Under the pieces are notes generated by a model that did not search any database, was not told where the DNA came from, and saw nothing but the letters and a program-made list of their open reading frames with translations. Below, one piece after another: positions 1,936 through 33,554 of a stretch of DNA of 64,000 bases. Origin of the DNA: Octopus vulgaris (taxonomy: Eukaryota); NCBI GenBank assembly GCA_951406725.2, contig OX597842.1, positions 1,116,001 to 1,180,000 on the forward strand, given 5' to 3'. The stretch's first letter is position 1; every line of letters starts with the position of its first letter. The position numbers and the translations under genes are program-made.

Positions 1936-2230
1936 ACGAAAAAAACAAAAGACGAAGACAGGGGGTGTACAAAACAAACAGATGTATTAGTATAACGCTC
2001 AGGAATAGAAAAAAGTCTTTTACGTTTCAAGCCTACGCTCTTCTACAGAAAGGGGCACAAAAAAAAACAAGGAGAGAAAAAAATGTGTGTAATGGCTAAT
2101 ATGTATATATGACGGGCTTCTTTCAGTTTCTGTCTACCAAATTCATTCACAATGCATTGGTCAACCCAAGGTTATAGTAGAAGACACTTGCTCAAGGTGC
2201 CATGCAGTGGGACTGAATCCAAAACCATGT
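1636..2230 (-). mobile_element. SINE family A (tRNA-headed, internal TA/CA tract, (AGAGTAAA) tail; probably the octopus OK-type SINE), interrupted at ~1932-2100; extra 3' fragments at 1270-1600
   Basis: Matches the many copies in this window (TTTCAGTCATTTGACTG...GGACTGAA). Confidence 0.85.
2017..2052 (-). ncRNA. Minimal type-I hammerhead-like motif with A6U core variant, in a Penelope-like insert (~1932-2100)
   Basis: Minus strand reads CUUU-CUGUAGA-A-GAGC(GUAG)GCUU-GAAA-CG-UA-AAAG. Confidence 0.5.
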
Positions 2231-2249
2231 ATGTATATATATATGTGTA

Positions 2250-2490
2250 TAGAAATTAAATATAAATTACAAAATGGGACAAGAACGCAAAAACACACAA
2301 AGAGACACAAAAAAACAGACGGGTCATTCGAAGCTTCTAATCTTCAGTCGGGAACCGGATCATCATAGCAATTTCAGCTGATTAATCCTCTATATCGCTC
2401 CGATACGGCCAGCCCCAAAGAAAAACTAAGCCACGGGCATTAGATTTCTTGGAAAGAGGATCGAATGTATACGAAACAAGGACAGGGTGC
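2250..2490. repeat. Dispersed repeat abutting (TA)n; opposite-orientation copy at ~31180-31520
   Basis: ACAAAATGGGACAAGAA...GATCGAATGTATAC matches the reverse complement of 31324-31505. Confidence 0.7.
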
Positions 2491-2827
2491 CACACGAATC
2501 GCCATCTCTCCTCCCCTTGCTCTCTCTCTCTCTCTCTTATGCACATGTAATAGAATATAAATATGTGACAAAGATGTCCAGGTGCCAATTCATTACTGCC
2601 ATTTGAAGCTGCTTCATCTAATTGATTAATGAGAACATTACATCGATTTGAAAGAAACTGCTCCCTTCAGATGACAACATAGGCATCAAATATAAGGGAT
2701 AAACAAATTTACATCAATAATGGAAACAAGGAATAGATAACCTAATTGCAACCCTATAATGAAATCCCACCAGTCCCCTCCAACCAAATTTCAGGCCTTG
2801 TACCTTTAGTAGAAAGGATTATTATTA

Positions 2828-4020
2828 TTATTACCTCTACCTTAGCGAAGACAGAGGTATTGGAAAAGATTTTCCCCACAAATTCCTTTACAATCGTAAT
2901 GTATGCCGTTTCAAATATATTTCTATAGAAATTTCATTGAAAAACACTCCATTTTCCTAAAAGTTACGAGGGAAAAGTTTGAATTTTGTGAATTTTCCGA
3001 TGTCCTCTCCCCAACCGCTGGGAAAAGATTTTCCCCCAAAAAAAATTCTTTATAATCGTAATGTATGCCTTTTGAAAGGTATTTCTATAAAATTTCATTG
3101 AAAAAAACCACCATTTTCCTAAAAGTTACGAGGCAAAAGTTCGGATTTTGTGAATTTTCCGATGTCCTCTCTCCAACCGCTTGGAAAAGATTTTCCCACC
3201 AAAATTTCTTTATAATCGTAATGTATGCCATTTGAAAGGTGTTCACTCTTTTATCCTTGTCTCAGTCATTTGACTGCAGCCATGTTGGAGCACTGCATTT
3301 AGTCGAGCAAATCGACCCCAGGACTTATTATTTGTAAGACCAGTACTTATTCTATCGGTCAATATTGCCGAACCGCTAAGTGACGGGGACGTAAACACAC
3401 CGGCATCGGTTGTCAAACGATGTTGGGGGGACAAACACAGACACACACACATATATATATAAATATATATATATACATATATACGACGGGCTTCTTTCAG
3501 TTTCCGTCTACCAAATCCACTCACAAGGATTTGGTCGGCCCGAGGCTAGAGGAGACACTTGCCCAAGGTTTCACGTAGTGGGTCTGAACTCGGAACCATG
3601 TGGTTCGTATGCAAGCTACTTAACACACAGCCACTCTTACGCCTATTTCTATAAAATTTCATTGAAAAAAACCCCCATTTTCCTAAAAGTTACGAGGGAA
3701 AAGTTCGGATTTTGTGAATTTTCCGATGTCCTCTCCCCAACCGCTTGGAAAAGATTTTCCAAAAAACATTTCTGTATAATCGTAATGTATGCCATTTGAA
3801 GGGTATTTCTATAAAATTTCATTGAAAAAACCCTAATTTTCCTAAAAGTTACGAAGGAAAAGCTTGAATTTTGTAAATTTTCCGAAGTCTTCTCCCCAAC
3901 CGCTTGGAAAAAATTTTCCCCAAAAATTTCTTTACAATCGTAATGTATAACATTTGAAAGGTATTTCTATAAAATTTCATTGAAAAAAAGCCATTTCTCT
4001 AAAAGTTACGAGGGAAAAAG
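2828..4020 (+). mobile_element. Helentron/HINE-like element: terminal hairpin followed by a tandem ~155-bp array, split by a SINE
   Basis: TTATTACCTCTACCTTAGCGAAGACAGAGGT hairpin at 2828-2858. The unit TTTCTATAAAATTTCATTGAAAA...CCAACCGCTTGGAAAAGATTTTCC...GAAAGGTA repeats about 5 times. Confidence 0.55.
3243..3643 (-). mobile_element. SINE family A, full length, inserted in the 155-bp array
   Basis: The array unit resumes on both sides (GAAAGGT | ATTTCTATAAAA). Confidence 0.9.
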
Positions 4021-7000
4021 TCGGACGTAAATATTAACTGAATCGAAAAATAAGGATAACTCTAAGAAATATTCTGAAGTGTTTATAATGGTATAATGTT
4101 TGAAAGGCACAGTGTGTTGTAATTCAATTACTAAGTTATATAATACCAGAAGCGAAGTAGAATCAATGTTTAATGTAAACCATGATGGTATAAAACGAAA
4201 ATATAACCTCGCAGAATAGTCTGTCATAAAATAATGGGACCATTGTCAAAAAGACCAAAAATTAAATAAATTTTAAAGTCTTTGGTATATAGACCAACCC
4301 TTAAAGGAAGTTTTCCGTAATATTGTTAAGGTAACGACATAATTTCAAGTATGAACATTATGAGCAAAACGATAAATAATACAAAGTGAAATGTTAAACT
4401 TGACATAGAAATAGTTTAGGAATTGTTGGTTGTGGAATATTCAAAGAAAAATAATCTCAAGGAAACGTACTTTTTGCTAGAAGTCCAAAGAGTGGAAATA
4501 AATCCGAGTGAAGACAAACATTTTACCACAATTAACAGTTTACTAATTGAAATAACGTTTGTAAAATAGGAATTCGATAAAAACGAAATACAATTTCGTT
4601 TTCCATAATTGTTACCCACGTTTGAACTACCCTGCATTATTTTCTACAAACAATTTAGGTGAATAATGCACATTTTTTAGCGCCAGTCAAAGTTATTATC
4701 AAATTTTTAAAAAAAGGCACATTTATTATTATTATAGTTCCTATCAAAAACGACTATATAAGAAAAAATTGTCGACTATATAAGATAACAAAATGGACGC
4801 CCTAACGTGACCAACCAATGTAAAAAAAAAACTTTAAGAAAACGTTTATGCCCAGCAATAAAAAATGTCTGGTTTTCATTCCCAATTACTGCAGCATTTT
4901 TGTGCAATCTTTGCGTGCACTTAATAGCTAATTGAGTAAAGCTCACATCTGAGTACAACTCATCTCATTTCTCGCACTGCTCAACAGGACCCAATCTCGA
5001 TTTTCGAAAAAAAATAAGTAGATGGATGGCAGACGAAGCTGCCTATAAAATTTCAATGAAATTGGATGAATGGTTCAGAAGATAATTGCGGTCGGATGGA
5101 ATTGTCCATAAGATTATATATATATATATGTATATATATATACACACACACAAGTTCCTTTCAGTTTCTGTCCCCCAAATCCACTCATGAGGCTTTGGTC
5201 TGCCCGTAGTTACAGCAGACGACACTTGTCCAAGGTTCCACTCAGTGGGACTGAACCTGGGGCCATATTGTTGTGAAGCAAGCTTCTTACCACGCAGTCC
5301 TCTCCCCACCCGCTTGGAAAAGATTTTCCACCCAAATTTCTTTATAATCGTAATGTATGTCGTTTGAAAGGTATTTCTATAAAATTTCATTGAAAAACAA
5401 CCCCATTTCTCTAAAAATTACGAGGGAAAAAATCGGACGTAAATATTAACTGAATCGAAAAATAAGGATAACTTAAAGAAATATTCTGAAGTGTTTTTAA
5501 TGGTATAACGGTTGAAAGGCACAGGGTGTACTAAGTTAATTACTAAGTTATATAATACCAGAAGCGAAGTAGAATCAATATTAATGTAAACCATGATGGT
5601 ATAAAACGAAAATATAACCTCGCAGAATATTCTGTCATAAAATAATGGGACCAATTGTGGTCAAAAAGACCAAAAATTGAATAAATTTTAAAGTCTTTGG
5701 TGTATAGACCAACCCTTAAAGGAAGTTTTCCGTAATATTGTTAAGGTAACGACATAATTTCAAGTATGAACATTATGAGCAAAACGATAAATAATACAAA
5801 GGCAAATGTTAAACTTTACATAGAAATAGTTTAAGAATTGTTGGTTGTGGAATATTCAAAGAAAAATAATCTCATTGAAACGTACTTTTTGCTTGAAGTC
5901 CAAAGAGTGGAAATAAATCCGAGTGAAGACAAAAATTTTACAAATGACAGTTTACTTATTGAAACAACGTTTGTAAAACAGGAATTCAATAAAAACGAAA
6001 TACAATAAGTTTGATAATGCTTTCGTTTTCCATAATTGTTAGCCACGTTTGAACAACCCTGTATTATTTTCTACAATTTAGGTGAATAATGCACATTTTT
6101 TAGCACCAGTCAAAGTTATTATCAAATTTTAAAAAAAAGGCACATTTATTATTATTATTATTATTATAGTTCCTATCAAAAACGACTATGTAAGAAAAAC
6201 ATTGTCGACTATATAAGATAACAAAATGGACGCCCTAACGTGACCAACCAATGTGAAAAAAAAAAACCTTTTGAAAATTTGTTTACGAAAACGTTTATGC
6301 CCAGCAATAAAAAATGTCTTGTTTTCATTACTGCAGCATTTTTGTGCAATCTTTGAGTGCACTTAACAGCAGATTGAGTAAAGCTCACATGTGAGTACAA
6401 CTCATCTCACGTCTCGTACTGCTCAACAGGACCCAATCTCTTGCTGGATGGCAGACGAAGCTCTGTACAAAATTTCAATGAAATTGGATGAATGATTCAG
6501 AAAATAATTGCGGTCGTATGGAACTGTCACACACACAGAAAACTTCAGCTTTATTTATATATATATAAGATTATATGTGGTCAAAAATATCAAAAATTGA
6601 ATAAATTTTAAAGTCTTTGGTGTATAGACCAACCCTTAAAGGAAGTTTTCCGTAATATTGTTAAGGTAACGACATATTTTCAAGTATGAACATTATGAGC
6701 AAAAGGATTAAATAGTACCAAGTCAAATGTTAAACTTAAGATAGAAATAGTTTAGGAATTGTTGGTTGTGGAATATTCAAAGAAAAATAATCTCAAGGAA
6801 ACGTACTTTTTGCTTGAAGTCCAAAGAGTGGAAATAAATCCGAGTGAAGACAAACATTTTACCACAATTAACAGTTTACTAATTGAAATAACGTTTGTAA
6901 AACAGGAATTCGATAAAAAACGAAATACAATAAGTGTGATAATGCTTTCGTTTTCCATAACTGTTACCCATGTTTGAACTACCCTGCATTATTTTCTGCA

Positions 7001-7462
7001 AACAATTTAGGTGAATAAGGCACATTTTTTAGCGCCAGTCAACGTTATTATCAAATTTAAAAAAAAGGCACATTTATTATTATTATAGTTCCTATAAAAA
7101 ATGACTATATAAGAAAAAATTGTCGACTATATAAGATAACAAAATGGACGCCCTAACGTGACCAACCAATGTAAAAAAAAAGGTTTATGCCCAGCAATAA
7201 AAAACGTCTTCGTTTTCTTTCCTAATTACTGCAGCATTTTAGTGCAATCTTTGCGTGCACTTAACAGGTGATTGAGTAAAGCTCACATGTGAGTGCAACT
7301 CATCTCATTTTTCGCACTGCTCAACAAGACCCAATATCGATTTTCGAAAAAATAAGGAGATGGGGTCCTTGCTGGATGGCAGACGAAGCTCTGTACAAAA
7401 TTTCAATGAAATTGGATGAATGGTTCGGAAGATAATTGCGGTCGTATGGAATTGTCCATAAG

Positions 7463-7512
<50 letters not shown>

Positions 7513-8235
7513 AGTTTCTTTCAGTGTCTGTCCCCCAAATCCACTCATGAGGCTTTGGTCTGCCCGTAGTTACAGCAGACGACACTTGTCCAAGGTTCCA
7601 CTCAGTGGGACTGAACCTGGGGCTATGTTGTTGTGAAGCAAGATTCTTACCACACTGTCCTTTCCCCCAACCGCTTGGAAAAGATTCCCCTCCAAAAAAA
7701 AATTCTTTATAATCGTAATGTATACCGCTTGAAAGGTATTTCTATAAAATTTCAATGAAAAACAACCCCATTTCTCTAAAAGTTACGAGGGAAAAAGTCG
7801 GACGTAAACATTAACTGAATCGAAAAATAAGGATAACTCTAAGAAATATTCTGATGTGTTTATAATGGTATAACGGTTGAAAGGCACAGGGTGTTTGTTG
7901 TAAGTTAATTATTAAGTTATATAATACCAGAAGCGAAGTAGAATCAATATTAATGTAAACCATGATGGCATAAAACGAAAATATAAACTCGCAGAATATT
8001 CTGTCATAAAATAATGGGACCAAATGTGGTCAAAAAGACCAAATGTGGTCAAAAAGACCAAAAATTGAATAAATTTTAAAGTCTTTGGTGTATAGAGCAA
8101 CCCTTAAAGGAAGTTTTCCGTAATATTGTTAAGGTAACGACATAATTTCAAGTATGAACATTATGAGCAAAAAGCGATACATAGTACAAAGGCAAATGTT
8201 AAACTTAAGATAGAAATAGTTTAGGAATTGTTATA
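3900..8235 (-). mobile_element. Tandem array of a ~1.1-1.4 kb non-autonomous Helitron-like unit (3-4 partial copies) carrying a truncated SINE
   Basis: Markers recur at 4020/5432/7797, 4775/6208/7126 and 5025/6448/7376. Minus-strand A|TCTTATATATATATAAATAAAGCTGAAG starting at 6570 is a Helitron-type 5' end. Confidence 0.65.
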
Positions 8236-8404
8236 ACAACAATTAATATAAAGCTTTCCTTCCATAAGTTTCAAGTTTCTCCATTGTTTGAAAAAAAAAA
8301 CTAGGAACATGTATCGTATATGATCAATGAACACCAGAGCAATATGTTCTGTGTATTGTTTGTGATACACAAGACAGACAAAGAATAAAATCTACCCCGG
8401 AATT

Positions 8405-8858
8405 TCACTCTCTTTTACTAATTTACTCTTTTATTTGTTTCAGTCATTTGACTGCAGCCATGCTGGAGCACTGCCTTTAATTGAGCAAATCGACCCTAAG
8501 ACTTATTCTTTGTAAGCCTAGTACTTATTCTATTGGTCTCTTTTTGCCGAACCGCTAAGTTACGGGGACGTGAACACACCAACATCGGTTGTCATTTGGT
8601 AGATGGAAACTGAAAGAAGCCTGTCGTATATATGAATATATGTATGTGTGTGCATATGGTTGTGTGTGTGTGTTTGTCCCCCAACATCGCTTGACAACTG
8701 ATGCTGGTATGTTTATGCTCCTGTAACATAGTGGTTCGGCAAAAGAGACCGATAGAATAAGTACTAGGCTTACAAAGACCAAATCCTGCTTGTCTAAAGG
8801 CGGTGCTCCAGCATGGCCACAGCCAAATGACTGAAACAAGTAAAAAAAAAGAGAGAGA
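8405..8858. mobile_element. Two SINE A 3' halves fused in inverted orientation
   Basis: The minus copy 8405-8594 switches directly to a plus copy 8595-8858. Confidence 0.8.
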
Positions 8859-9349
8859 GTATAAAATTCTGTCTGTCTGTCCGGGACCCCTGTATCTTAG
8901 TCTACATTTGCTTTACATAGACATATTATACCTTTTTGGAATTAGAATGATTTGCGGGATTGAAAATCTGCCCTTCATTTGGTTCTTAGCCATCCAGCAT
9001 TGGGATCAGGTCCAGATGAGGATTTGTCATATGCTAACAGTTGAAAATTCAAATTTTAAAAGAATTCCAAAAATCTGTGAACTTACAAGTTTTTCATTCA
9101 GCACACAGAAAGACCTGCTTAGTGATATCAATCCTGTTGCTACATTCTGAGTTCAAATTCGGCTGAGGTCGACTTTGCCTTTCATCCTTTCAGGGTCGAT
9201 AAATTAAGTACCAGTGAAACACTGGGGTCGATGTAATTGACTAGTCCCCTCCCCCAAAATGACAGGCCTTGTGTCTTTAACAGAAAAGATTATTATTGCT
9301 CTCTTTAGTTTTCGGCCACAGGCCCAATTAACCCTCTGCAGGAGCTAGC

Positions 9350-10002
9350 TTAAACTTTTCATTACTGTATTTATTTTGAGATGCTCTCTTTACTCTCTCT
9401 TTTACTCTTTTACTTGTTTCAGTCATTTGACTGCGGCCATGCTGGAGCACCGCCTTTAATCGAGCAACTCGACCCCGGGACATATACTTTTGAACGCCCA
9501 GTACTTATTCTATCAGTCTCTTTTGCCAAACCGCTAAGTGATGGGGACGTAAACACACCAGCATCGGTTGTCAAGCAATGCTAGGGGGACAAACACAGAC
9601 ACACAAACACACACACGCATATATATACATATATACAACGGGCTTCTTTCAGTTTCCGTCTACCAAATCCACTCACAAGGCTTTGGTCGGCCCGAGGCTA
9701 TAGTAGAAGACACCTGCCTAAGGTGCCACGCAGTGGGACTGAACCCGGAACCATGTGGTTGGTAAACAAGCTACTTACCACACAGCCACTCCTGCGCTTG
9801 TTACTGTATTTATTTTGAGATATTCTGTGTTTCTTTCAATTACTTTAAATATAACAAAGAATTTGGTAAAATAACTTAGTTATCATTAAGCTAGTGTCAG
9901 GAACATAAATTGGTGGAAGATTTTAATTCAAAACGTATGGAAACAAGACATTTGTACTTAGAGACATAGGTGGTTTCAGCCAGGTTGGTATCAAAAGGGT
10001 AA
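9350..10002. mobile_element. piggyBac-type MITE containing a SINE A insertion (9384-9798, minus) with a 21-bp TSD
   Basis: TTACTGTATTTATTTTGAGAT at 9362-9382 and 9801-9821. The body matches the MITE at 10081-10307. Confidence 0.75.
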
Positions 10003-10080
10003 ATTTGCAGATTTTGTTTCACTTGTTAGAAATAGCAGCCAAATCTTGTGCAAATTGAAGACACATTTGATTGACTGTCT

Positions 10081-10308
10081 TTAATCCTTTCGTTATTGTA
10101 TTTCTTTTGAGATGCTCTGCATTTCTTTCAGTTACTTTAAATATAACAAAGAATTTAGTAAAATAACTTAGTTATCATTAAGCTAGTGTTAGGAATATAG
10201 ATTGTGACTAAGGTTTGGTGGAAGATTTTAATTCAGAACTTATGGAAGCAAGATATTTGTACTACAAAGCCAGAGCTGGTTTCAGCCGGGTTGGTAACAA
10301 ATGGGTTA
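10081..10308. mobile_element. piggyBac-type MITE
   Basis: TTAATCCTTTCGTTA...GGTAACAAATGGGTTAA; termini resemble those of the element at 49884-50926. Confidence 0.75.
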
Positions 10309-10382
10309 AAAGTCTGCATGGAGTGTGGCTTTTAAGCCAGTCTATTATAATTTCATTGATATCTAGCATGTTTCATGGCAAA

Positions 10383-11639: not shown

Positions 11640-13070
11640 AGGAAGAGAGATGTTAATTTAGAGAGAAGAATATGAAAGAATGTAGAAGTGAGAAATAGGA
11701 GCAGACAGAAGCAGAAGGTAACTGGAAGAGAAAAAATTTATGATGGAAGATTGGAGTATGATGAATAAAATTGAAAAAAAATTATAGATGAAGACCGACA
11801 TAAGTGAACAGGAATTGTAAACTGTAGAAAATAGAGAAGAAATGAGCAGAAGACAAAGAAGATGGAATGTAGGGAGGTGAAGGAAATAGGAAAAAGCAGA
11901 CGATTGAAGCAGAAGGTAAATGGAAGAGAAAATATTTATGATGGATGATTGAAGTAAGATGAACAAAAAATAACAGATGAAGACTGACACAAGTGAACAG
12001 AATTGTAAACTGTAGGAAATAGAGAAGAAATGAGCAGAAGACAAAGAAGACAGAATGTAGGGAGGCGAAAAAGACAGGAGAAAGCAGATGATAGAAGCAG
12101 AAGGTAAGTGGAAAAGCGGATATTTAAGATGGATGATTGAAGTAAGATGAACAAAACTGAATAAAAATAACAGAAGATGACTGATGCAAGTGAACAGAGT
12201 TGAGAGTATGAATACATAAACAAGTGCCTGTCCAACAGTGATTGCATCATCCATACTCTCAACAATGCGCCCTTAAATATGGTTTCTGATTACAAATATC
12301 TTGGGTCATACATATCATCATCTGAAAAAGATTTTCTAACTAGAAAGGGTATGGCCTGGTCAGCCTGTAATGACATGCATAAGATCTGGTCATCAAATCT
12401 AAGTAGAGACTTCAAACTTGAAATCTTCAAAGCCACAGTCGAACCAATTCTACTATATGGCTCAGAAACCTGGACGTTATCAAAGAAGCTTGAGAGGCAG
12501 TTGGATGGAACTTACACTCGCCTCCTTATAAAAGCTCAAAATCTCTCGTGGAAGCGTCATCCAACCAAAGTACAAATATATGGAAACTACCACCTGTGTC
12601 ATCTCTTGTGAAAGGTAGGAGAATCCAGTTTGCTGGACATTGTTGTAGAATTGAAAACGAGGTAATTTCTACTCTTCTCCTCTGGAAGCCATCTACTCGC
12701 AATACCAGAGGGTGCACACTCTCCTACCCTGATGTAATCTCCAGGGATACAGGCATCCAGCAACAGGACCTCCGTAATGCTATGATGGACCGTGAAGTCT
12801 GGTGTAGCATGGTAAATTCCATTGTCTCGACCACGGTCGAACAATGATGATCTGATGAGTGAACAGAACTGTAAACTGTAGAAAATAGAGAAGATGTAAT
12901 GTCAGGAATGAGAAGACGACGGAATGTAGGGAGGCGAAGAAGACAGGAGAAAGCAGATGATAGAAGCAGAAGGTAAATGGAAGAGAAGCAGAAGTTAAAT
13001 GGAAGAGACAATATTTAAGATGGAGGATTAAAGTAAGATGAACAAAACTGAAAGAAAATAAATCTTTTGG
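11640..13070. repeat. Purine-rich ~190-bp tandem repeat, split by an RTE fragment
   Basis: GTGAACAG.AATTGTAAACTGTAG.AAATAGAGAAGA recurs at ~11803, 11992 and 12859. Confidence 0.75.
12199..12857 (+). mobile_element. 5'-truncated RTE/RTE-X LINE (RT C-terminus, one frameshift) with short TGA tail and 10-bp TSD
   Basis: YKYLGS...LLYGSETWTL...RIQFAGHC...AMMDREVW. AGTGAACAGA at 12189-12198 and 12858-12867. Confidence 0.9.
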
Positions 13071-15357: not shown

Positions 15358-15466
15358 CATATATATATATATATACACACAACAATTGTTTTCGTTTTAG
15401 CACACGATCTCAGATCAAATTACTTGCTAAGCAAGTACATCTCCGTAATATATATATATATATTTC

Positions 15467-16037: not shown

Positions 16038-16266
16038 CTTTATTTTAAGCAGCAGAAAATTCAACAAAATCTGTTACTCTGAGTTTCTCGTTGCCGTTCA
16101 TCAGACAATTTTTGCTAGCAAAAACTGTCTGATGAACGGCAACGAGAAACTCAGTGTAACAGATTTTGTTGAATTTTCTGCTGCTTAAAATAAAGCATAT
16201 TACTCTACCACTGGTATTTGAGTACTCTTTTTTCCACCTTGTTTCACATTTATGTGTTTACTCCAG
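16038..16266. mobile_element. Penelope-like fold-back insert in (TA)n: 79-bp arms (16038-16116 / 16117-16195) plus a one-sided extension
   Basis: Near-perfect palindrome centred on GCTAGC; each arm contains a hammerhead motif. Confidence 0.75.
16125..16162 (+). ncRNA. Minimal type-I hammerhead ribozyme motif (mirror copy on the minus strand at ~16071-16108)
   Basis: CUGU-CUGAUGA-ACG(GCAA)CGA-GAAA-CUCAGU-GUA-ACAG. There is an A.A mismatch at the base of stem II. Confidence 0.65.
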
Positions 16267-22774: not shown

Positions 22775-22776
<2 letters not shown>

Positions 22777-22993: not shown

Positions 22994-23025
<32 letters not shown>

Positions 23026-23245: not shown

Positions 23246-23687
23246 TTATTATCATCGTTGTTGCTCTAGTCATAATTATTGTTGTTGCTGTTGTTATTTC
23301 ATGTGACAATTACATACTAATTACTTCATCTTGCGTCAACGGAGGAAGAAAAGAAGACAATATCTTCCAACAGTTACCATTCTACATTAGTTCTTTTTCT
23401 TCCAGAATTCTTCCTTCTTTTACTGTCTTTGGACTACAGACATTTCCAGTCTCTACACGATTTTTGTTTGGCCAACTGTCAGCCTTGTCAACAGTACATC
23501 TCTTATACAAGCTTCTGTCTTCTCTCAAACAGCTTCTGTCTTCTGGTTCTTCTCTCTCTCATTCTCTCTTTCTCCTCTGACAGTTGTATTTGTCACTTGG
23601 TTTCTAGTTTCGCTTTTGTTCTCTGTTCCATCTACTCTGTTCGTTATTCTGCAGTTTTTAGCATCATTACAATCATCATCATCATCA

Positions 23688-24150: not shown

Positions 24151-24154
24151 GTAA

Positions 24155-24350
24155 CATTTAACATCAGTTTTCCATGTGGACATGGGTTGGATGCCTTGAC
24201 AGGAACTGACAAGGCCAAGAGGCCACACCAGGTTGCATGGTATGTTTTTGACTTGGTTTCTACAGCTTGATGCCCTTCCTAATGCCAACCAATTTACAAA
24301 GTGAACTGGGTGCTTTTTACATGATACTATCACCAAGCTTTTTAAGTTGC
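24155..24350 (-). mobile_element. RTE R1 3' UTR fragment grading into the satellite
   Basis: TTTAACATCAGTTTTCCATG...GATGCCCTTCCTAATGCCAACC...GGGTGCTTTTTAC. Confidence 0.75.
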
Positions 24351-25915
24351 ACCAGCACAAGTGCCTTTTAAGTGGCACCAGCACCAGTGCTTTTTAAGTG
24401 GCACCAGCACCAGTGCCTTTTAAGTGGCACCATCACCAGTGCTTTTTAAGTGGCACCAGCACCAGTGCTTTTTAAGTGGCACCATCACCAGTGCTTTTTA
24501 AGTGGCACCATCACCAGTGCTTTTTAAGTGGCACCAGCACCAGTGCCTTTAAGTGGCACCATCACCAGTGCTTTTTAAGTGGCACCAGCACCAGTGCTTT
24601 TTAAGTGGCACCATCACCAGTGCTTTTTAAGTGGCACCATCACCAGTGCTTTTAAGTGGCACCAGCACCAGTGCCTTTTAAGTGGCACCATCACCAGTGC
24701 TTTTTAAGTGGCACCAGCACCAGTGCTTTTTAAGTGGCACCAGCACCAGTGCCTTTTAAGTGGCACCAGCACCAGTGCTTTTTAAGTGGCACCATCACCA
24801 GTGCTTTTTAAGTGGCACCAGCACCAGTGCTTTTAAGTGGCACCATCACCAGTGCTTTTTAAGTGGCACCAGCACCAGTGCCTTTTAAGTGGCACCATCA
24901 CCAGTGCTTTTAAGTGGCACCATCACCAGTGCTTTTTAAGTGGCACCAGCACCAGTGCTTTTAAGTGGCACCATCACCAGTGCTTTTTAAGTGGCACCAG
25001 CACCAGTGCCTTTTAAGTGGCACCAGCACCAGTGCTTTTTAAGTGGCACCATCACCAGTGCTTTTTAAGTGGCACCATCACCAGTGCTTTTTAAGTGGCA
25101 CCAGCACCAGTGCCTTTTAAGTGGCACCAGCACCAGTGCTTTTTAAGTGGCACCAGCACCAGTGCCTTTTAAGTGGCACCATCACCAGTGCTTTTTAAGT
25201 GGCACCAGCACCAGTGCTTTTTAAGTGGCACCATCACCAGTGCTTTTAAGTGGCACCATCACCAGTGCTTTTTAAGTGGCACCAGCACCAGTGCCTTTTA
25301 AGTGGCACCATCACCAGTGCTTTTAAGTGGCACCAGCACCAGTGCTTTTAGTGGCACCATCACCAGTGCTTTTTAAGTGGCACCATCACCAGTGCTTTTT
25401 AAGTGGCACCAGCACCAGTGCCTTTTTAAGTGGCACCATCACCAGTGCTTTTAAGTGGCACCAGCACCAGTGCTTTTTAAGTGACACCATCACCAGTGCT
25501 TTTAAGTGGCACCATCACCAGTGCCTTTTAAGTGGCACCAGCACCAGTGCCTTTTAAGTGGCACCAGCACCAGTGCTTTTAAGTGGCACCATCACCAGTG
25601 CTTTTTAGTGGCACCATCACCAGTGCTTTTAAGTGGCACCAGCACCAGTGCTTTTTAAGTGGCACCATCACCAGTGCTTTTTAAGTGGCACCAGCACCAG
25701 TGCTTTTTAAGTGGCACCAGCACCAGTGCTTTTTAAGTGGCACCAGCACCAGTGCTTTTTAAGTGGCACCAGCACCAGTGCCTTTTAAGTGGCACCAGCA
25801 CCAGTGCCTTTTAAGTGGCACCAGCACCAGTGCTTTTTAAGTGGCACCATCACCAGTGCTTTTTACGTGGCACCATTACCAGTATTCTTTATGTGGTACC
25901 AGCACCATTGTTTTT
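24350..25915. repeat. Minisatellite, 25-26 bp unit AAGTGGCACCA(G/T)CACCAGTGC(C/T)TTT(T), about 60 copies
   Basis: Seen directly. Confidence 0.97.
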
Positions 25916-25934
25916 ATGTGATCCCATCAGCTGT

Positions 25935-26510
25935 TGTTTAGCACTTGCTAAACAGCAGCAAAAGCAAATTCATGGACTTAGTGTTGAAAATTGAAGGATA
26001 CTATATCCTATGCGTTGGAAGAGGGCTCCTCATGAAGTACTCTCTCCCATGCAACCCCAAATCAGCTGGACCAGCATACCTCAAAGAAGATCTGGAAGTG
26101 AAATGCTCAGAATACCAAAACCAAGACCATGCATGGGTAGGTTTCTCATAGACTTGAAGAAGATAGTAACATTGACAGGAAGTGAAGATTGATAGATAAA
26201 TAGATAGGATGATAGATAGATAGATAGACAGACAGATAAACAGACAGGAAGTGAAGCCTTTTCTGTGACTGCTACATCACACTTCGAAGGCTATGCATTT
26301 GCAATCAAAGAACAGAAGACTGCATCTAAATACCTAATCAACAAAAGTGGCAGTGAAGCCCTTGGAGTTCCAAGATGCAACCATAAATGTAGATTATGTT
26401 ATATTTCTGTGGAAGACATTCCATATGTGATCAGCAGCTGCCCAAAAATGCCATCAAAGGATTACATCTCTATACGACCTGACATAATCGCAAAAACAAT
26501 ATACATATCA
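25935..26510 (+). mobile_element. R4/Dong-type non-LTR retrotransposon fragment (post-RT region and CCHC knuckle)
   Basis: TSHFEGYAFAIKEQ...KCRLCYISVEDIPYVISSCPKMPSKDYISIRPDIIAK. Confidence 0.75.
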
Positions 26511-26757
26511 AAAACAACTGCAGTGTGGAAGGTGTTTATAAGCCATTTATGAAACACACAAAACCGTTAGATCCACTTCAACATTTAAATTTAATTTGCC
26601 AAAATATTTTCATCGCTTTGAGGCAGCGACCTGTTCACTGACAAAATTCCATGTGGCATCTTAAATGGCTTATAAACACCTTCCACGCTGCAATTGTTTT
26701 CATTCCAGCACACAATCTCAGATCAGGTCACTTGCTATGCAAGTACATCTCCATAAT
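26511..26757. mobile_element. Penelope-like fold-back insert: arms 26511-26549 / 26662-26700 plus extension; extension also at ~15387-15450
   Basis: Inverted arms enclose a hammerhead-fold motif. Confidence 0.65.
26595..26645 (-). ncRNA. Type-I hammerhead ribozyme fold with G3-C8 swapped core
   Basis: UUUGUCA-GUGAACA-G-GUCGCU(GCCUCAA)AGCGAU-GAA-AAUAUU-U-UGGCAAA. Confidence 0.65.
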
Positions 26758-27034
26758 ATACATATCATAGCCATATATAGAGGGGAATTCTTTGGAGTTT
26801 GAATAATTCACCTTTGGAACATGAGTGTTTTGTTCAACATCCTTAAACAACCCTTATTCAGGAACCTTTTGAGTGGAATAGGCTACTCGGCCTGAAGAAA
26901 ATTCTAACTGGGCCCCACCTGTAAGGTCATGTGCTGGTTATCTTGATATGAGATCACTATGTCGTGCCTGATGTACCCTTTTGGGAAAAAGACTGTTCTG
27001 GAATGAATTATAGAGAATCCCCTTGTTACTGAAT

Positions 27035-27257
27035 ACTCTTTTCTCTTTTACTCTTTTACTTGTTTCAGTCATTTTGACTGTGGCCATGCTAGAGCACCAC
27101 CTTTAGTCGAGCAAATCGACCCCAGGACTTATTCTCTGTAAGCCTAGTACTTATTCTATCGGTCTCTTTTGCCAAACCGCTAAGTTATGGGGACATAAAC
27201 ACACCAGCATCGGTTGTCAAGCAATGTTGGGTGGAAAAACACAGACACACAAACATG

Positions 27258-27297
<40 letters not shown>

Positions 27298-27475
27298 CAT
27301 ATATACGACAGGCTTCTTTCAGTTTCCCTCTACCAAAGGCTTTTCATCTACACAAGGCTTTGGTTGGCCCGAGACTATAGTAGAAGACACCTGCCCAAGG
27401 TACCACGCAGTGGACAGAACCCGGAACCATGTGGTTTGTAAGCAAGCTACTTACCACACAAACACTCCTACGCCT
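27035..27475 (-). mobile_element. SINE family A
   Basis: Full copy. Confidence 0.9.
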
Positions 27476-27662
27476 ATAACATACACAAATACCAGCGCAA
27501 GGAATACTGGTGGAATATTCCTGTCAAATGTAAACATAACAAACTGGATATTGTTGTTTGGGACAGACAAGAGAAAGTATGTACCATCATAGAGGTCAGC
27601 TGTCTTGCCAATGTGAACATCTCTTTGAAAATCAAAGAGAAAGAAAATAATTATGGACAACT

Positions 27663-27829
27663 TAGGCGCAGGAGTGGCTGTGTGGTAAGTGGCTTGCTTA
27701 CGAACCACATGGTTCCGGGTTCAGTCCCACTGCGTGGCACCTTGGGCAAGTGTCTTCTACTATAGCCTCAGGCCGACCAATGCCTTGTGAGTGGATTTGG
27801 TAGATGGAAACTGAAAGAAGCCCGTCATA

Positions 27830-27886
<57 letters not shown>

Positions 27887-28097
27887 TTGTGTGTCTGCGT
27901 TTGTCCTCCTAGCATTGCTTGACAACCGATGCTGGTGTGTTTATGTCCCCGTCACTTAGCGGTTCAGCAAAAGAGACTGATAAAATAAGTACTGGGCTTA
28001 CAAAGAATAAGTCCTGGGGTCGAGTTACTCGACTAAAGGCGGTGCTACAGCATGGCTGCAGTCAAATGACTGAAACAAGTAAAAGAGTAAAAGAGTA
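27663..28097 (+). mobile_element. SINE family A
   Basis: Full copy: AGGCGCAGGAGTGGCTGTGTGGTAAG...GGTTCAGTCCC...AAAAGAGTAAAAGAG. Confidence 0.92.
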
Positions 28098-28158
28098 ACT
28101 GCTTCAGAACTGCCAGCTTCTATATCTGGATTACAAATTTACATTTATATCAATAATA

Positions 28159-28505
28159 TTGGGTTGTCCGGAAAGTTCATGCCGATTTATAGTAGCTTAC
28201 CTTTCGACTTATTTTAGAACATGGTTGAGTCCATAAAATAGGATTTGACTACACCTCCATTTAGAGCACAGTTTAAGCTATCTTTTCGTGGGAAGAAGGT
28301 TTATGTTCCTATAATCTGTGTTAATTCTGTAACCCTTTAAAATTGGAAGATAAGAAAGTTCATTTTCGGTACTTGATGCTTTGGGAACCAGACAGAAATT
28401 GCTGCAGCTCAGCGCTGGGATGTGTTACCCCACCCTCCATATTCACCAGATATTGCTCCTTTGGATTTCCACTTATTCAGGTCTCTGCAGGATAGTCTTA
28501 ATGGT
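28159..28505 (+). mobile_element. Internally deleted mariner, same family as 1-678; 5' TIR present, 3' truncated
   Basis: TA|TTGGGTTGTCCGGAAAGTTCATGCCGATTT; encodes WDVLPHPPYSPDIAPLDFHLFRSLQ. Confidence 0.88.
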
Positions 28506-30200
28506 CTAGACTACCTCCACTCCCAAGGGACCAATGTCTGACCCACATGTCTCTTTCATTTCACGGTGGCTCTCCCTATCAATGAGCAAATGTCTCAAAT
28601 AAAGGGAAACACTCTCACCCGGCAAGTTCACCCTTCGACCTTTTTCACTAGTGGTGCTTTCCTTGCCTCGTATAACAATGCAAAAGCTGTTTTTTGCGGG
28701 GCAGGGGTTGGGGGATTTGAGGCTCCTGTGTGTTTGTAAGTGTACCTGTATGTGCAGGTTCTGGGTCAGTGTCTGGGGCTGGGTGAGGGATGGTGTCTGT
28801 GGGAGTAGGGTGGAGGCTAGTATCCATGGAGTGGTTATTCCTCCTCTTTCACCTTTTCTTCTTGGAGATGTTGGTCCGTCGTTTTCCTCTGGCACCTTTA
28901 TCCCTTTCTCATCACATTTCTCCTCCATCTCTGCATTTGTCACTGTATGAGGTAGAGGTGCAGTTTCCTTCACCACTGGAGGTACCACAGGTGCTTTTGC
29001 AGGAGGTGGAGAGCATTCTGCTCTTATGTGGCCTTTCTAGCCACACTTGAAGCATTGAGGTTTCCTGCCCTTCACCACTACCCTCAATCTCGTCACCCAC
29101 CAAAATGGTGTCCACCATATTTTCTATCTCCTCTGGGGCAGCTGGGATGATCATCTCCAGACCCTGCCCTAGTCAGTTTTGCTTTGATATTCTTGATGCT
29201 TGGAGGATTGTTATCCTCTCCTCCAAGCCTAATGATATCACTGCTGCCAGCCAGGCAACATCCACCTCTGGTGGGATTTCTTTGACGTTTACTCTAGAAG
29301 TTCACCTTCCAAGGTATGGTGGTAGTAGAATCACTTAAAAGGCGGCGAGGAGCTGGCAGAATCGTTAGCACGCTGGGTGAAATGCTTAGAAGTATTTCGT
29401 CTACCGTTACGTTCTGAGTTCAAATTCTGCCGAGGTCGACTTTGCCTGTCATCCTTTCGGGGTCAATAAATTAAGTACCAGTTACGCACTGGGGTCGATG
29501 TAATCGACTTAATACCTATGTCTGTCCTTGTTTGTCCCCTCTGTGTTTAGCCCCTTGTGGGTAGTAAAGAAATAGGTAGTAGAATCACTTCTTCGGTCTT
29601 CAGGGAGGCCACAGAGTGTTGCCTGGCAATTTCCTCCGTTTGAAACCCCTCTTCCACCGAAGCATATTTGTAACCCCTGGCCAGGTATGCAATTTCAGGC
29701 CAGATCAGTCTCAAGCACTTCTTGATTTGAACCTTTGTTGCCACATGTATATTTTTCTCTTTGACTAAAAACATTAAAAATATTTTCTTCAACGTATCTT
29801 CACTAACTCTGCAAGGAGGAGTCAGTTCAATTTTGTGCCCCTCCTTTTTTGAACAAGTCTTTGTACTTCATTAAATTCTGCATTTCAAACTCTATCTCAT
29901 ATTTCAAAGTGTTGGCTGCAGCTGCAAAACTTTGATACTTTTCCTGTTGATATTCATTATCCTTTTCCCTCTTGACAGCTCCTTGTCTCTGTTATCCAAG
30001 AATTCCATTAATTCATTCTCCAACGAATCCACATCAGAAAGACTTAACCTTTCACAACCAGTGTTCATGATATACCAAAAGCGCTTCCCCACTCAAACAA
30101 GAAGAAAACAACAACAGGACCACCAGAAAGCAGTAAAACAGTGGTGCATTAAACATACACAATAACAATATTCAACAATTCAACAATCGTAATATAACAA
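28506..30200 (-). mobile_element. Decayed ORF1 (gag-like) of a Tx1/L1-type LINE, split by a SINE
   Basis: Zinc knuckle GRKPQCFKCG*KGHIRAEC at ~29012-29069. The reading frame continues across the SINE. Confidence 0.7.
29337..29574 (+). mobile_element. SINE family B, full length, with 16-bp TSD
   Basis: GGTAGTAGAATCACTT at 29321-29336 and 29575-29590; tRNA-like A/B boxes (TGGCAGAATCGTTAG, GAGTTCAAATTC). Confidence 0.92.
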
Positions 30201-30326
30201 GCAAACAAGCAACACTGACACTAAATAATGACACTAACTCTTGGCATAAAGTAAAAAGAATGGATAGCTCAAGCCATCACTACATGCATTTCAGTAGCAT
30301 GGCTATTTATTCAAGAATGCATAGTA

Positions 30327-30671
30327 TCTGAGACCCCTTTCAGTCACGACACAGACCATGGGATTGCATGAAGAAAGTTACCCTCCCAGGCACATATCCG
30401 GGCAAGGTTGTTTATGGAAGACCAGCAGTCGCCCATGTATACCGGCCTCCCCTCCTCATGCCACTGATGTTATCCAAGGGAAAGGCAAAGGGGCTGATAC
30501 AGTTTGGCACCTGTGACGTCGCAACTCATTTCTACAGCTGAGTGAACTGGAGCAACATGAAATAAAGTGTCTTGCTCAAGAACACAACATGCAACCCAGT
30601 CCGGGATTCGAGCTCACAACCTTACGATCGTAAGCTTGACGCTCTAACCACTGAACCATGTGCCTTCACAC
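30327..30671 (-). mobile_element. SINE family C (tRNA head plus CORE-like GTGTTCTTGAGCAAGACAC) with 11-bp TSD
   Basis: AATGCATAGTA at 30316-30326 and 30672-30682. Relatives at 35393-35638, 46543-46790, 52300-52775 and 57045-57215. Confidence 0.85.
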
Positions 30672-31130
30672 AATGCATAGTAATTAGGCAATATTACACA
30701 GCTACACATAACTTCACCTGATGAAATGACATGGCTATGAAGTTATGTAATCTTGGGTAATTGTTATATACTATTGAATAAATAACCATGCCATCGAAAC
30801 CTGTGTAGCAATATGTGGAGTCATATGTTCTGATTTTCTTTACTACATTATACATTGCCTAATATGTAGTAGTTATCTCACTGATACAAAATTAGAGTTG
30901 CAAAATGACTGGAATCATTAAACAAATGTCTATCTTCTGAGGGACTGCTCTATATTGACCGATTGAATGACTTGGAAAGTTTATGGAGTCCCTTTGGAAC
31001 AAACTGTTAGACTGATATAGGTGAAAGTGCTACAAAGCTAATTGCCAAGACCAATTGATTGATCAATTAATTAATCTACCTACCTACCTACCTGCCTGCC
31101 TGCCTGCCTGCCTGCCTGTCTGTTTGTGTG

Positions 31131-31163
<33 letters not shown>

Positions 31164-31515
31164 ATATATATATTTATTTCAAAATGCGCCAGCTAAGATA
31201 AGTTAAACTGTCTAAAGTCGTAAGACACCCACTGTTTTTGTCCTGTTATTACTATTCTTGTCTTTTATTTTTGTTTTTGTATCTATATTCGTGTGGCATC
31301 GTCCGTTTTTCTGTACTTGTTTTGTATACATTCGATCTTTTTTCCAAGAAATCTAATGCTCATGGCTTAGTTTTTCCTTAGGGGATGGCCATAAGGATTA
31401 ATCAGGAGAATTCAGTATGATCCGGTTATACTGAAGATTAAGGTATAATGACCCATCCGTTTTTTTGTCGTTAAGTGGTTTTGCATTCTTGTCCCATTTT
31501 GTATTTTTATATATA

Positions 31516-31565
<50 letters not shown>

Positions 31566-31687
31566 TTGCAGATATAGGGTAAAGAATTATTAATTTAATA
31601 ATTAATCAATTTTACCAAGTAGTTTCAGTAAGGAGAAAAAAGACCATTATCAGTTATAAATTGTACAAAAAGTTTATATATATATAT

Positions 31688-31925
31688 ATAAATATAATTA
31701 AGGGTTTAGTAACAAGTTGCTTCACCACATACTGAAAACTTAGAAATAGCAGCCAAAAGACAGCTAATTCTATTAACTACAAATATTCTGTGGAGTCACA
31801 AATATGTCTGTGGAGTCACAAATATTATTTGTAGCTAAAGAAATTAGCTGTCTTTGGCTGCTGTTTCTAAATTTTCAGTATGTGGTGAAGCAACTTGTTA
31901 CCAAACCCTTAATTATATTTATAAA
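31688..31925. repeat. Fold-back element in (TA)n with ~95-bp arms
   Basis: AATATAATTAAGGGTTT.GTAACAAGTTGCTTCACCACATACTGAAAA and its reverse complement. Confidence 0.85.
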
Positions 31926-31951
31926 TAAATATATATATATAGATATATATA

Positions 31952-32522
31952 TAGTGGTTGTATACTGTCAACTTAACGTGACAGTAGTAGGGATTACACC
32001 ACCGCTGTTTAGCCCTAGAAGCATCAACACTTCCTGTTGGCTTTGACACATTTCTGTGTCCTTATATATTTACGAAGGGAGACAAACACCCCCAACAGCT
32101 AGGCCTGCATCTAGAGACACGCATGTTTCAGGGTCTTTGCCCATCATCGGTCTAGAGTAGCAGAGGGTATTTGTCTCCCCTTCGTAAATATATAAGGACA
32201 CAGGAAATGTATCGAAGCCGACAGGAAGCGTCGAGGCTTCCTAAGGCTAAACAGCGGTGGTGTAATTCCCTACTGTCACGTTAACCCTTTAGCATTCAGA
32301 TTATTCTGTCAAATGTAAAGCTTATGTATTCACACCATGTAAAATTAATCTTGCATCATTTCATGGCTTTGAGATTTCAATGATGTGATTGTTTATTTTT
32401 AAAATGACACAATAAGGTAGCTATGAATGACTATATCTGACTAGTCTGAACATAAAATATTTTGGCCGAATATGGCCGGTTTAAACACTAAAGGGTTAAG
32501 TTGATAGTATACAACCACTCTA
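31952..32522. mobile_element. Long-TIR MITE/fold-back with a piggyBac MITE in its right arm
   Basis: TAGTGGTTGTATACTGTCAACTTAACGTGACAGTAG versus CTACTGTCACG-TTAA[insert]TTAA-GTTGATAGTATACAACCACT. Confidence 0.85.
32285..32495. mobile_element. piggyBac-type MITE with TTAA TSD
   Basis: TTAA|CCCTTTAGCATT...AACACTAAAGGG|TTAA. Confidence 0.9.
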
Positions 32523-32571
32523 TCGCCCCACCACCGTACATATCTCTATGAGATATTTAGAAATTTAATAT

Positions 32572-32614
<43 letters not shown>

Positions 32615-33060
32615 AGGAGGTATCCAAAAGTTCCTGGACTGGTTCTGTAGCACACTAACAGATGGCAGCACATGGTTGCATGTGCAGTGAGAGCTAGCAG
32701 TGACCTGTCTTTACTTTGCAAGTTGTGAAATTTGTGCTTTTGGGATCACACGTATGCTATAGTCTGCAATTTCTGTCTTGGACAGGAAGTTGGAACAAAG
32801 AACCAAAGTGAAATTTTGCATTGAACATGGGAAGTCTTCTACAGAGACATTGAGCATGCTCTGGCAAACTTACAATAATGAAGGTAATGGGTTATATGCA
32901 ATGTTTCAAATGGCATTGGTGCTTCAAAAGTGGAAGAATGTCTCTGAAACATGATTAGGGATCTGGAAAACCTGCCACGATTGTGAGCCCCAGAAATGTG
33001 TAGAAAATTCATCAGCATGAACATGAGAATCATTGGAGAACAACCAACGAGATTATCGAT

Positions 33061-33249
33061 ATACATTATTTACATTGTTTACATTATTTACAATTGACAG
33101 ATATTTGTCCTCATCTTGTTTGTTGTTAACACAACGTTTCGGCTGATATACCCTCCAGCCTTCATCAGGTGTCTTGGGGAAATTTCGAACCTGGGTTCTC
33201 ATTCCTAAAGTATTCTTCGATGTTATTATTATTATTATTATTATTACTA

Positions 33250-33305
<56 letters not shown>

Positions 33306-33554
33306 GTTCAGGTCACTGCTTGGAAGTGAACTCGGAATCTTGGGGTTAATAGTAATAATAACAACAACAACATTGAAAAATACCTTATGAATGAGAACCC
33401 AGGTTCGAAATTTCCGCAAGACACCTGATGAAGGCTGGAGGGTATATCAGCCGAAACGTGTTAAAAACAAACAAGATGAGGACAAATATCTGTCAAATGT
33501 AAATAATGTAAACAATGTAAATAATGTTCATAATTCCTCATCTCTTAAATATAG
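33061..33554. mobile_element. Penelope-like fold-back insert with ~165-bp arms and an apparent 15-bp TSD
   Basis: Arms ~33065-33230 / 33361-33528. AACGA(G/T)ATTAT(C/T)GAT at 33046-33060 and 33555-33569. Confidence 0.8.
33128..33173 (-). ncRNA. Type-I hammerhead ribozyme motif; the plus copy at 33420-33462 lacks the cleavage triplet
   Basis: GACAC-CUGAUGA-A-GGCUG(GAGGGUAUAU)CAGCC-GAAA-CG-UU-GUGUU. Confidence 0.78.

What the first reader, a model, noticed from the sequence alone, without database searches (positions are those of the whole stretch)
2017..33462. Four unrelated short inserts each carry a minimal hammerhead ribozyme fold
Seen: type-I hammerhead topologies at 2017-2052(-), 16125-16162(+ and mirror), 26595-26645(-) and 33128-33173(-), in four inserts of different sequence. 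Three inserts are asymmetric fold-backs, and most abut microsatellite. Stem III is palindromic with 0-1 loop nt (ACGU, AAUAUU, or ACUC-A-GAGU in the mirror arm at 16 kb). Three have an extra purine between A9 and stem II. Established: Penelope-like elements carry minimal hammerheads in their pseudo-LTRs, which can cleave as dimers, and insert as inverted or partial-tandem structures. Inference: a diverse non-autonomous Penelope/ribozyme system dense enough to affect processing of any transcript through this region.
Basis: partly seen in the sequence, partly recalled or inferred. Interest (0 to 1): 0.78.

Follow-up and report, generated by a model that had tools for sequence, protein, structure and literature searches.

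The report
Octopus Penelope hammerheads, one swapped core
Five short repeats in this octopus DNA carry the tiny hammerhead motif typical of Penelope-like jumping genes and are most likely dead end-fragments of them; this kind is already known, but one very abundant family has two paired catalytic letters swapped (G3-C8), a form I found in print only as a lab-made mutant, and its cutting is untested.

Summary
The four motifs are present and exceed chance: 4 observed against a mean of 0.08 in 150 shuffles. Only two motifs have a canonical core: 2017-2052 has U6, and 26595-26645 has the C3-G8 pair swapped to G3-C8. A fifth motif (U4C) lies at 32110-32156. The + arms at 16 kb and 33 kb are damaged.

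Head-to-head inverted arms, one-sided tails, microsatellite targets and an extra base after A9 match 5'-truncated Penelope-like (PLE) ends, described since 2014. No PLE reading frame could be linked. The host is an octopus.

Contigs from four DNA runs show the G3-C8 core is the family norm at very high copy (roughly 10^4, a rough figure), with family majorities giving better stem pairing. None of 56 published representatives has it.

The idea that these motifs process host transcripts is not supported. Three of five motifs lose their stems in predicted read-through RNA, and published PLE hammerheads need dimers or element protein.

Verdict: known kind, with one natural core variant worth an assay.

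The parts
1933..2098 (-). Site 1 insert, single arm; its 3' end abuts (GA)n
   Evidence: no second copy in the window
2017..2052 (-). Minimal type I hammerhead with U6 in place of A6; stem I 4 bp, stem II 4 bp, stem III ACGU; predicted cut 2021/2020. Whether U6 is a family trait is untested
15383..15457 (+). 3'-end-only copy of the site 3 family between (TA)n tracts, without hammerhead
   Evidence: 87% identity over 75 nt
16038..16264 (.). Site 2 insert: head-to-head fold-back 16038-16195 (97% self-complementary) plus a tail of about 70 nt on the + arm, (TA)n at both ends
16071..16108 (-). Minimal hammerhead with canonical core; stem II 2 bp with a GCAA loop, extra A on both sides; stem III ACUC-A-GAGU; predicted cut 16075/16074
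16125..16162 (+). Mirror copy of the site 2 hammerhead, stem III pair broken at 16155
   Evidence: not returned by the scans
26238..26504 (+). Host of the site 3 insertion: zinc-knuckle part of a decayed non-LTR retrotransposon frame, continuing at 27457-27660 and 28099-28167; not part of the hammerhead family
   Evidence: about 42-55% identity to proteins, 2 of 8 with PF00078; depth 60-1400 against about 1e5-3e6 over most of the insert
26511..26765 (.). Site 3 insert: arms 26511-26552 and 26659-26700 (93%), one-sided tail 26701-26757/26765; very high-copy family with two common 3' ends
   Evidence: (tables 2, 5, 7)
26595..26645 (-). Minimal hammerhead with swapped G3:C8 core (G3 at 26638, C8 at 26633), extra G, stem I 7 bp, stem II 5-6 bp, stem III AAUAUU, U17; predicted cut 26602/26601
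31973..32284 (.).
32110..32156 (-). Minimal hammerhead with U4C in this copy; stem I 6 bp, stem II 3 bp, 10-nt near-palindromic stem III, GUC cleavage triplet; predicted cut 32116/32115
33063..33555 (.). Site 4 insert: head-to-head fold-back (arms 33095-33222 and 33371-33495, 93%), internal (AAT)n, tail of about 30 nt on the + arm
33128..33173 (-). Minimal hammerhead with canonical core, extra A, stem I 5 bp, stem II 5-6 bp, stem III ACGU; predicted cut 33133/33132
33420..33465 (+). Mirror copy of the site 4 hammerhead with 3 nt lost at the cleavage site
33322..33333 (-). B-box-like word upstream of the (AAT)n in the site 4 long arm; a lead only
   Evidence: ARAGORN finds no tRNA in the window

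Best explanation
The five inserts carry minimal type I hammerhead motifs and are most likely 5'-truncated, often inverted, dead terminal copies of five different Penelope-like retroelement families in an octopus genome. Shown: the motifs, head-to-head arms with 3' ends outward, one-sided tails at sites 2-4, and, for site 3, very high copy number, two common 3' ends and a family-wide G3:C8 core. Inferred: a PLE protein nicked AT-rich or microsatellite DNA and began reverse transcription inside uncleaved element RNA, at two nearby starts that give the tail. Early stops and inversion left only the pseudo-LTR end. In the parent element's tandem RNA, two motifs would pair through the palindromic stem III and cut slowly, probably with help from the element protein. 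The G3:C8 family would keep the 3-8 pair and so likely keeps partial activity (about 55%). Isolated genomic copies are predicted to be largely inert in host read-through RNA.
For: Motif features match the min-HHR definition: extra base between 9 and 10.1, G10.1-C11.1, palindromic 15.2-16.2 (against 15, 70). Inverted 5'-truncated copy, one-sided tail and microsatellite bias are described PLE hallmarks and are seen at sites 2-4. Two 3' termini (26699/26700 and 26757/26765) appear among the site 3 loose ends (table 7), as two RT starts do in PAc. Site 3 family: no C>G change at any place in any of 4 runs, and the only G>C is at 26620, so no reversion to C3:G8 reaches 5%. The majority letter at 26612 (70-83%) gives G10.1-C11.1, and 26599 varies U-G/U-A (41-71%) while keeping the pair. 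The two near-fixed differences lie in loop II. An exonised site 4 copy in a named O. sinensis protein changes only the residue that covers the free position 7 of the core (1 of 2 hits, the other is decayed there). PLEs are abundant in Octopus vulgaris.
Against: No PLE RT or GIY-YIG frame was linked: 0 of 147 window frame pieces hit such a Pfam family, and the peptide searches gave nothing or chance hits. The tails at sites 2 and 3 (about 57-70 nt) are longer than the published 30-40 bp, and site 5 shows no clear tail. Family-level data exist for 1 of 5 families only. They come from short contigs mapped at 80% or more likeness, which would miss more distant subfamilies, and 7 variant rows were not shown (one unshown G>A each in runs X6 and X12 could lie in the core). 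Within the family no two-sided stem covariation was seen. U6 and U4C may be decay in single copies. Cleavage is not shown.
Confidence: 0.8

Rival explanations
1. Some families, notably site 4, are true non-autonomous elements (a SINE-like head plus a PLE-derived hammerhead tail) that borrow PLE proteins, rather than truncated autonomous copies.
For: A B-box-like word lies upstream of the (AAT)n at site 4. Site 3 depth falls 3- to 4-fold just upstream of the motif, so most copies are short. Animal retrozymes are proposed to derive from PLE pseudo-LTRs (abstract to methods read).
Against: No tRNA gene is found and the head at site 4 is partial. No insert is a tandem array, which is the retrozyme hallmark. 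Site 3 5' ends vary (table 7).
Confidence: 0.2
2. The motifs cut host read-through or intronic RNA and so shape host transcript processing.
For: Five motifs lie in 64 kb. Sites 3 and 5 keep stem II (0.96 and 0.91) and site 3 keeps stem I (0.77) in predicted read-through folds.
Against: Stems I and II fall to 0.00-0.02 for sites 1, 2 and 4 in context. No same-strand partner of the same family lies in the window. Published monomers were inactive and dimers slow. The PAc motif needed protein, and no RNA-seq ends were found at its cut site. No host exon was identified.
Confidence: 0.04
3. The G3:C8 motif is a dead or non-catalytic descendant, kept as a protein-binding or folding element or simply carried along by a successful family.
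For: Hammerhead catalytic mutants did not affect PAc insertion in vitro. Naiad PLEs thrive without canonical hammerheads. All window copies span the cut site, so they were made from uncut or re-joined RNA (inference).
Against: Both partners of the 3-8 pair changed together while the rest of the core and all stems are kept across four organisms. The lab-made double mutant partly rescues cleavage.
Confidence: 0.4
4. The motifs are chance matches in AT-rich repeats.
For: The descriptors were widened after seeing the sites. The relaxed null reaches 3 hits. Site 2 has a 2-bp stem II and folds poorly alone (stem I 0.05). Rfam finds nothing.
Against: Observed 4 against 0.08 and 5 against 0.475. All five lie in low-copy inserts of the window, four in fold-backs. 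Site 3 family variation keeps the pairing.
Confidence: 0.03

Closest known systems
Minimal hammerheads (min-HHR) in pseudo-LTRs of metazoan Penelope-like elements (Cervera and De la Pena 2014, PMC4209133)
   Same: Type I topology, extra base after A9, palindromic or absent stem III, many unrelated families per genome, mostly single dispersed motifs, and dual motifs on opposite strands close together (100-700 bp in that paper).
   Different: Fig. S3 lists 56 representatives: 53 C3:G8, 2 U3:A8, 1 U3-G8, none G3:C8, none without A6, and no cephalopod. No PLE frame is linked here.
Poseidon PLE of Anolis carolinensis, PAc (Frangieh et al. 2024, PMC11167929)
   Same: Hammerhead near the element's 3' end, AT-rich targets, two internal RT starts giving a tail, intact motif in inserted copies.
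   Different: PAc has C3:G8, and C3G/G8C appears there only as an engineered partial rescue. The tails here are longer. The octopus proteins are unknown.
Natural hammerhead core variants (Perreault et al. 2011, PMC3088659)
   Same: Compensated change of the 3-8 pair; change at position 6; U4C mentioned in a viroid; 2-bp stem II.
   Different: The section read names U3-A8 and A6C, not G3-C8 or U6. Its figure 5 itself was not visible.
Non-LTR retrozymes (Cervera and De la Pena 2020, PMC7229834; bioRxiv 10.64898/2026.07.22.740005)
   Same: Short non-coding repeats with type I hammerheads, linked to PLEs.
   Different: Retrozymes are head-to-tail tandem units, mostly with canonical hammerheads. 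These inserts are single or head-to-head and minimal.

Membership tests
PLE min-HHR | 5' core CUGANGA (or a published variant), GAAA, NUH triplet | tested here: met
   Met for sites 2 and 4. Sites 1 (U6), 3 (G3:C8) and 5 (U4C) depart from the published descriptor; GAAA and NUH are kept in all five
PLE min-HHR | Extra base between position 9 and 10.1 | tested here: met
   5 of 5
PLE min-HHR | G10.1-C11.1 pair | tested here: inconclusive
   G-C at sites 4 and 5; G-U at sites 1 and 3, with the site 3 family majority G-C; C-G at site 2
PLE min-HHR | Palindromic 15.2-16.2 / loop 3 | tested here: met
   5 of 5; site 5 has one G-U pair and site 2 a central unpaired A
PLE min-HHR | Consensus family with conserved core and stems | tested here: met
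   Site 3 only; the other four families were not tested
PLE min-HHR | Self-cleavage as a dimer or with element protein | not testable with these tools
   Needs an in vitro assay
Penelope-like elements | RT plus GIY-YIG reading frame in full copies | tested here: inconclusive
   None in the window; peptide searches negative; no genome held
Penelope-like elements | Inverted 5'-truncated copy at the 5' end | tested here: met
   4 of 5 inserts; family joints between opposite strands (table 5)
Penelope-like elements | One-sided 30-40 bp tail | tested here: inconclusive
   About 30 nt at site 4, about 57-70 nt at sites 2 and 3, none clear at site 5
Penelope-like elements | AT-rich or microsatellite target | tested here: met
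   Sites 1 and 2, the copy at 15383-15457, and site 3 loose ends; the genome is very microsatellite-rich, so this is weak
Non-LTR retrozymes | Head-to-tail tandem units, each with a hammerhead | tested here: not met
   No same-strand repeat of any motif in the window
Rfam hammerhead families | Match to a curated covariance model | tested here: not met
   No hammerhead model at E up to 10 for sites 3, 4 or 5; sites 1 and 2 were not scanned separately
tRNA-derived SINE with hammerhead (site 4) | Pol III A and B boxes in a tRNA-like head | tested here: inconclusive
   B-box-like word only; no tRNA

The most novel reading that the evidence does not exclude
Octopus genomes carry a Penelope-type family of roughly ten thousand or more copies whose hammerhead has a natural, active G3:C8 core, alongside families with other non-standard cores (U6, U4C). 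All of these are invisible to the published CUGANGA descriptor. Protein-assisted PLE hammerheads would then tolerate core changes thought rare in nature, hammerhead counts in animal genomes would be underestimated, and thousands of natural variants of one motif would be available to test whether cutting matters for PLE spread.
Probability: 0.35. Interest if true: 0.6.

Novelty: new variant of a known kind. Interest (0 to 1): 0.38.

Why it matters
Minimal hammerheads in truncated Penelope ends are ordinary. The useful part is the G3:C8 family. A double change that keeps the 3-8 pair, fixed in a very abundant family across four organisms, suggests selection on the active fold. That bears on an open question raised in PMC8557442 and PMC11167929: do PLE hammerheads need to cut at all? 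It also shows that standard descriptors miss whole high-copy families. It does not support a role in host RNA processing.

Tried and rejected
- Whole-genome analysis: no genome is held, so family models and covariation tests could not be run.
- Rfam: the whole-window scan showed only repeat-driven hits among the 150 of 362 rows displayed. Targeted scans found no hammerhead model.
- Possible reading frame downstream of the site 3 motif (ATG at 26665): no homologue among longer proteins. The profile search was run one base off frame and gave two chance repeat proteins, so the intended frame was not searched in that library.
- Site 4 open frame: only two exonised host proteins.
- Metagenome pattern scan: one chance hit inside what reads as an ATP synthase gamma gene (the gene name is my recognition, not a call). 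Viral scan for the site 1 motif: 0.
- Sequencing runs: no RNA holder listed on record.
- Copies starting at the cut site: depth falls about 4-fold across 26596-26619, but table 6 lists no pile-up, the shown loose ends include none there (941 not shown) and this copy diverges there, so it is inconclusive.
- Site 3 as part of the flanking non-LTR element: rejected, because the insert interrupts the frame and is far deeper than its flank.
- Fold-backs 31697-31913 and 40612-40756: no motif in the scans.
- The site 4 stem II index was off by one and was corrected.
- Papers not held: Lunse et al. 2017 and Arkhipova et al. 2017. Either may already list G3:C8 or U6 cores.
- Earlier scan notes by place and by sequence gave nothing.
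Full report
1. Observation. A descriptor scan of both strands returned type I hammerhead topologies at 2017-2052(-), 16071-16108(-), 26595-26645(-) and 33128-33173(-), plus two weak long-range hits (23435-23498, 3185-3250) that the tighter descriptors dropped. With block-wise dinucleotide shuffles, the canonical core gave 2 hits against 0 in all 150 shuffles. The union of canonical and variant cores gave 4 hits against a mean of 0.08, maximum 1; that union was chosen after seeing the sites. A more relaxed scan gave 5 hits against a mean of 0.475, maximum 3 in 200 shuffles, and added a motif at 32110-32156(-). The cores differ: sites 2 and 4 are canonical, site 1 has U6, site 3 has G3:C8 and site 5 has U4C. 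The + arm at 16125-16162 has a broken stem III pair, and the + arm at 33.4 kb lacks 3 nt at the cut. Rfam hammerhead models match none of sites 3, 4 and 5, so Rfam does not decide anything here.

2. Setting. The window is AT- and microsatellite-rich: 16,812 of 64,000 bases are masked as tandem repeats. A translation of site 4 hits two named proteins of Octopus sinensis and O. bimaculoides at 89-91% identity, so the host is an octopus. No genome is held. None of 147 low-copy frame pieces of 48 aa or more hit an RT or GIY-YIG family; 2 of 147 had weak unrelated hits. Site 3 interrupts a decayed non-LTR retrotransposon frame whose pieces match RT-bearing proteins.

3. Anatomy. Four of five inserts are fold-backs. 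Read in the sense of the hammerhead, the arms are head-to-head with 3' ends outward. One arm is longer by about 70 nt (site 2), 57-65 nt (site 3) or 30 nt (site 4); site 5 has no clear tail. Sites 1 and 2 and a 3'-only copy of the site 3 family at 15383-15457 abut microsatellite. Craig et al. (PMC8557442; passages and one section read) describe these features for PLEs: 5' truncation, an inverted truncated copy at the 5' end, a 30-40 bp one-sided tail and microsatellite bias. Frangieh et al. (PMC11167929; parts 1-2 of 4 read) explain the tail by two internal RT starts. Octopus vulgaris has many PLE families, 31 of them with recent insertions (PMC13282606; passages); the word hammerhead does not occur in that paper's main text.

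4. The site 3 family. Twenty of 24 listed runs hold part of the stretch. I laid contigs of 4 of them, one each from organisms A-D, at 80% likeness and a 5% threshold. Between 5,356 and 9,882 contigs were laid per run. Summed depth over the core was 8e4 to 1e6, against 60-1,400 in the flank. Dividing by the depth of long contigs gives 5,000-67,000; the tool warns this is no copy number, so I take it only as an order of magnitude. No listed change falls in 26629-26650. Seven rows were not shown, but the per-run tallies contain no C>G at all, and the single G>C (runs X1, X6) is the row at 26620. Reversion to C3:G8 therefore does not reach 5% in any run; one unshown G>A each in X6 and X12 cannot be placed. 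The majority letter at 26612 (70-83%) turns this copy's G-U into G10.1-C11.1. Position 26599 varies (41-71%) between U-G and U-A in stem I. The two near-fixed differences (88-99%) lie in loop II, and the other stem changes are 5-9% CpG decay. These are one-sided, pair-keeping changes, not two-sided covariation. Loose ends show two 3' termini, near 26700 and 26757-26765, several followed by (TA)n, and 5' ends at several places. Joints between opposite strands show that inversion is common in the family.

5. Mechanism. Shown: motifs, arms, tails and the site 3 family traits. From the literature: metazoan min-HHR monomers did not cleave and dimers cleaved weakly (PMC4209133; parts 1-2 of 4 of the main text and the whole supplementary PDF text read). 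The PAc motif cleaved only with the element protein, catalytic mutants did not affect insertion, C3G/G8C partly rescued cleavage, and no RNA-seq ends were found at the cut. Inferred: these are dead ends of PLE insertions made from uncut RNA. In the parent tandem transcript, two motifs would pair through the palindromic stem III and cut slowly. The G3:C8 family would keep the 3-8 pair. Kalweit and Hammann (PMC3884650; passages) note that a G3-C8 variant did better with G17 than with C17; the family has U17, which may avoid a G3-C17 trap (my inference). Against host processing: in predicted folds of 450-700 nt read-through RNA, the mean pair probability of stems I/II falls from 0.71/0.98 to 0.00/0.02 (site 1), 0.05/0.62 to 0.00/0.00 (site 2) and 0.97/0.99 to 0.00/0.00 (site 4). 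Sites 3 (0.77/0.96) and 5 (0.24/0.91) keep stem II. No same-strand partner exists in the window.

6. Comparison and novelty. It works like, and probably is, the PLE min-HHR class. Membership in PLEs rests on anatomy because no reading frame was linked. It is not a tandem retrozyme (PMC7229834 passages; bioRxiv 10.64898/2026.07.22.740005 part 1 of 5). Among the 56 representatives of Cervera's Fig. S3, 53 are C3:G8, 2 are U3:A8, 1 is U3-G8, and none is G3:C8 or lacks A6. Perreault et al. (PMC3088659; passages and section 8 read, figure not visible) name U3-A8 and A6C. Searches for a natural G3-C8 core or cephalopod hammerheads returned only engineered uses, judged from listings and from passages of three papers. 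Two reviews were read as passages (PMC6765202; PMC6155905). Lunse et al. 2017, recalled as a large survey of small PLE-linked variants, and Arkhipova et al. 2017 were not available, so a prior report cannot be excluded. Earlier AI notes of this scan report G3-C8 swaps in phages and in protist PLEs, the latter with an added base, and many ordinary PLE min-HHR cases. These are unchecked leads, and they lowered my estimate of uniqueness.

7. Verdict. Observation partly confirmed, with corrections and one addition. Interpretation partly supported. Best explanation 0.8. Novelty: new variant of a known kind, on the strength of the high-copy G3:C8 family alone. Interest 0.38; novel case probability 0.35, with interest 0.6 if true.

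Noticed in passing
window 26238-26504, 27457-27660, 28099-28167 (+): Decayed non-LTR retrotransposon frame (zinc knuckle, then a restriction-like endonuclease motif; Dong/R4-like by recall), split by the site 3 insert and by SINEs.
   Followed up: partly
window 31697-31913 and 40612-40756: Two more low-copy fold-backs without a detectable hammerhead; possibly shorter PLE ends or MITE-like.
   Followed up: partly
window 2338-2485 and 31311-31440: Two-copy dispersed family (75% identity) ending at (TA)n. It holds the 5' half-core of a hammerhead but no matching stem set.
   Followed up: no
P0003, P0004: The site 4 family is annotated as the first coding stretch of two named Octopus proteins, one a dystrobrevin beta isoform; these are exonisation or annotation artefacts.
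   Followed up: no
window 33322-33333 (-): B-box-like word in the site 4 long arm, similar to five near-identical words elsewhere in the window, at least one in a dispersed SINE-like repeat.
   Followed up: partly
window 12204-12847, 42762-43358, 61174-61461: C-terminal fragments of LINE reverse-transcriptase frames (RTE-like by recall).
   Followed up: no
window 50298-50696 (-): Frame fragment that resembles a piggyBac-type transposase N-terminus (by recall; no Pfam hit).
   Followed up: no
window 4019-8232: Partial tandem array of a unit of about 1.1-1.4 kb at 83-87% identity.
   Followed up: no
window 26665-26755 (+): An ATG-initiated 30-codon frame starts about 60 nt downstream of the site 3 motif in family orientation and runs to the family's 3' end. 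It may be the start of the PLE frame; no homologue was found.
   Followed up: partly
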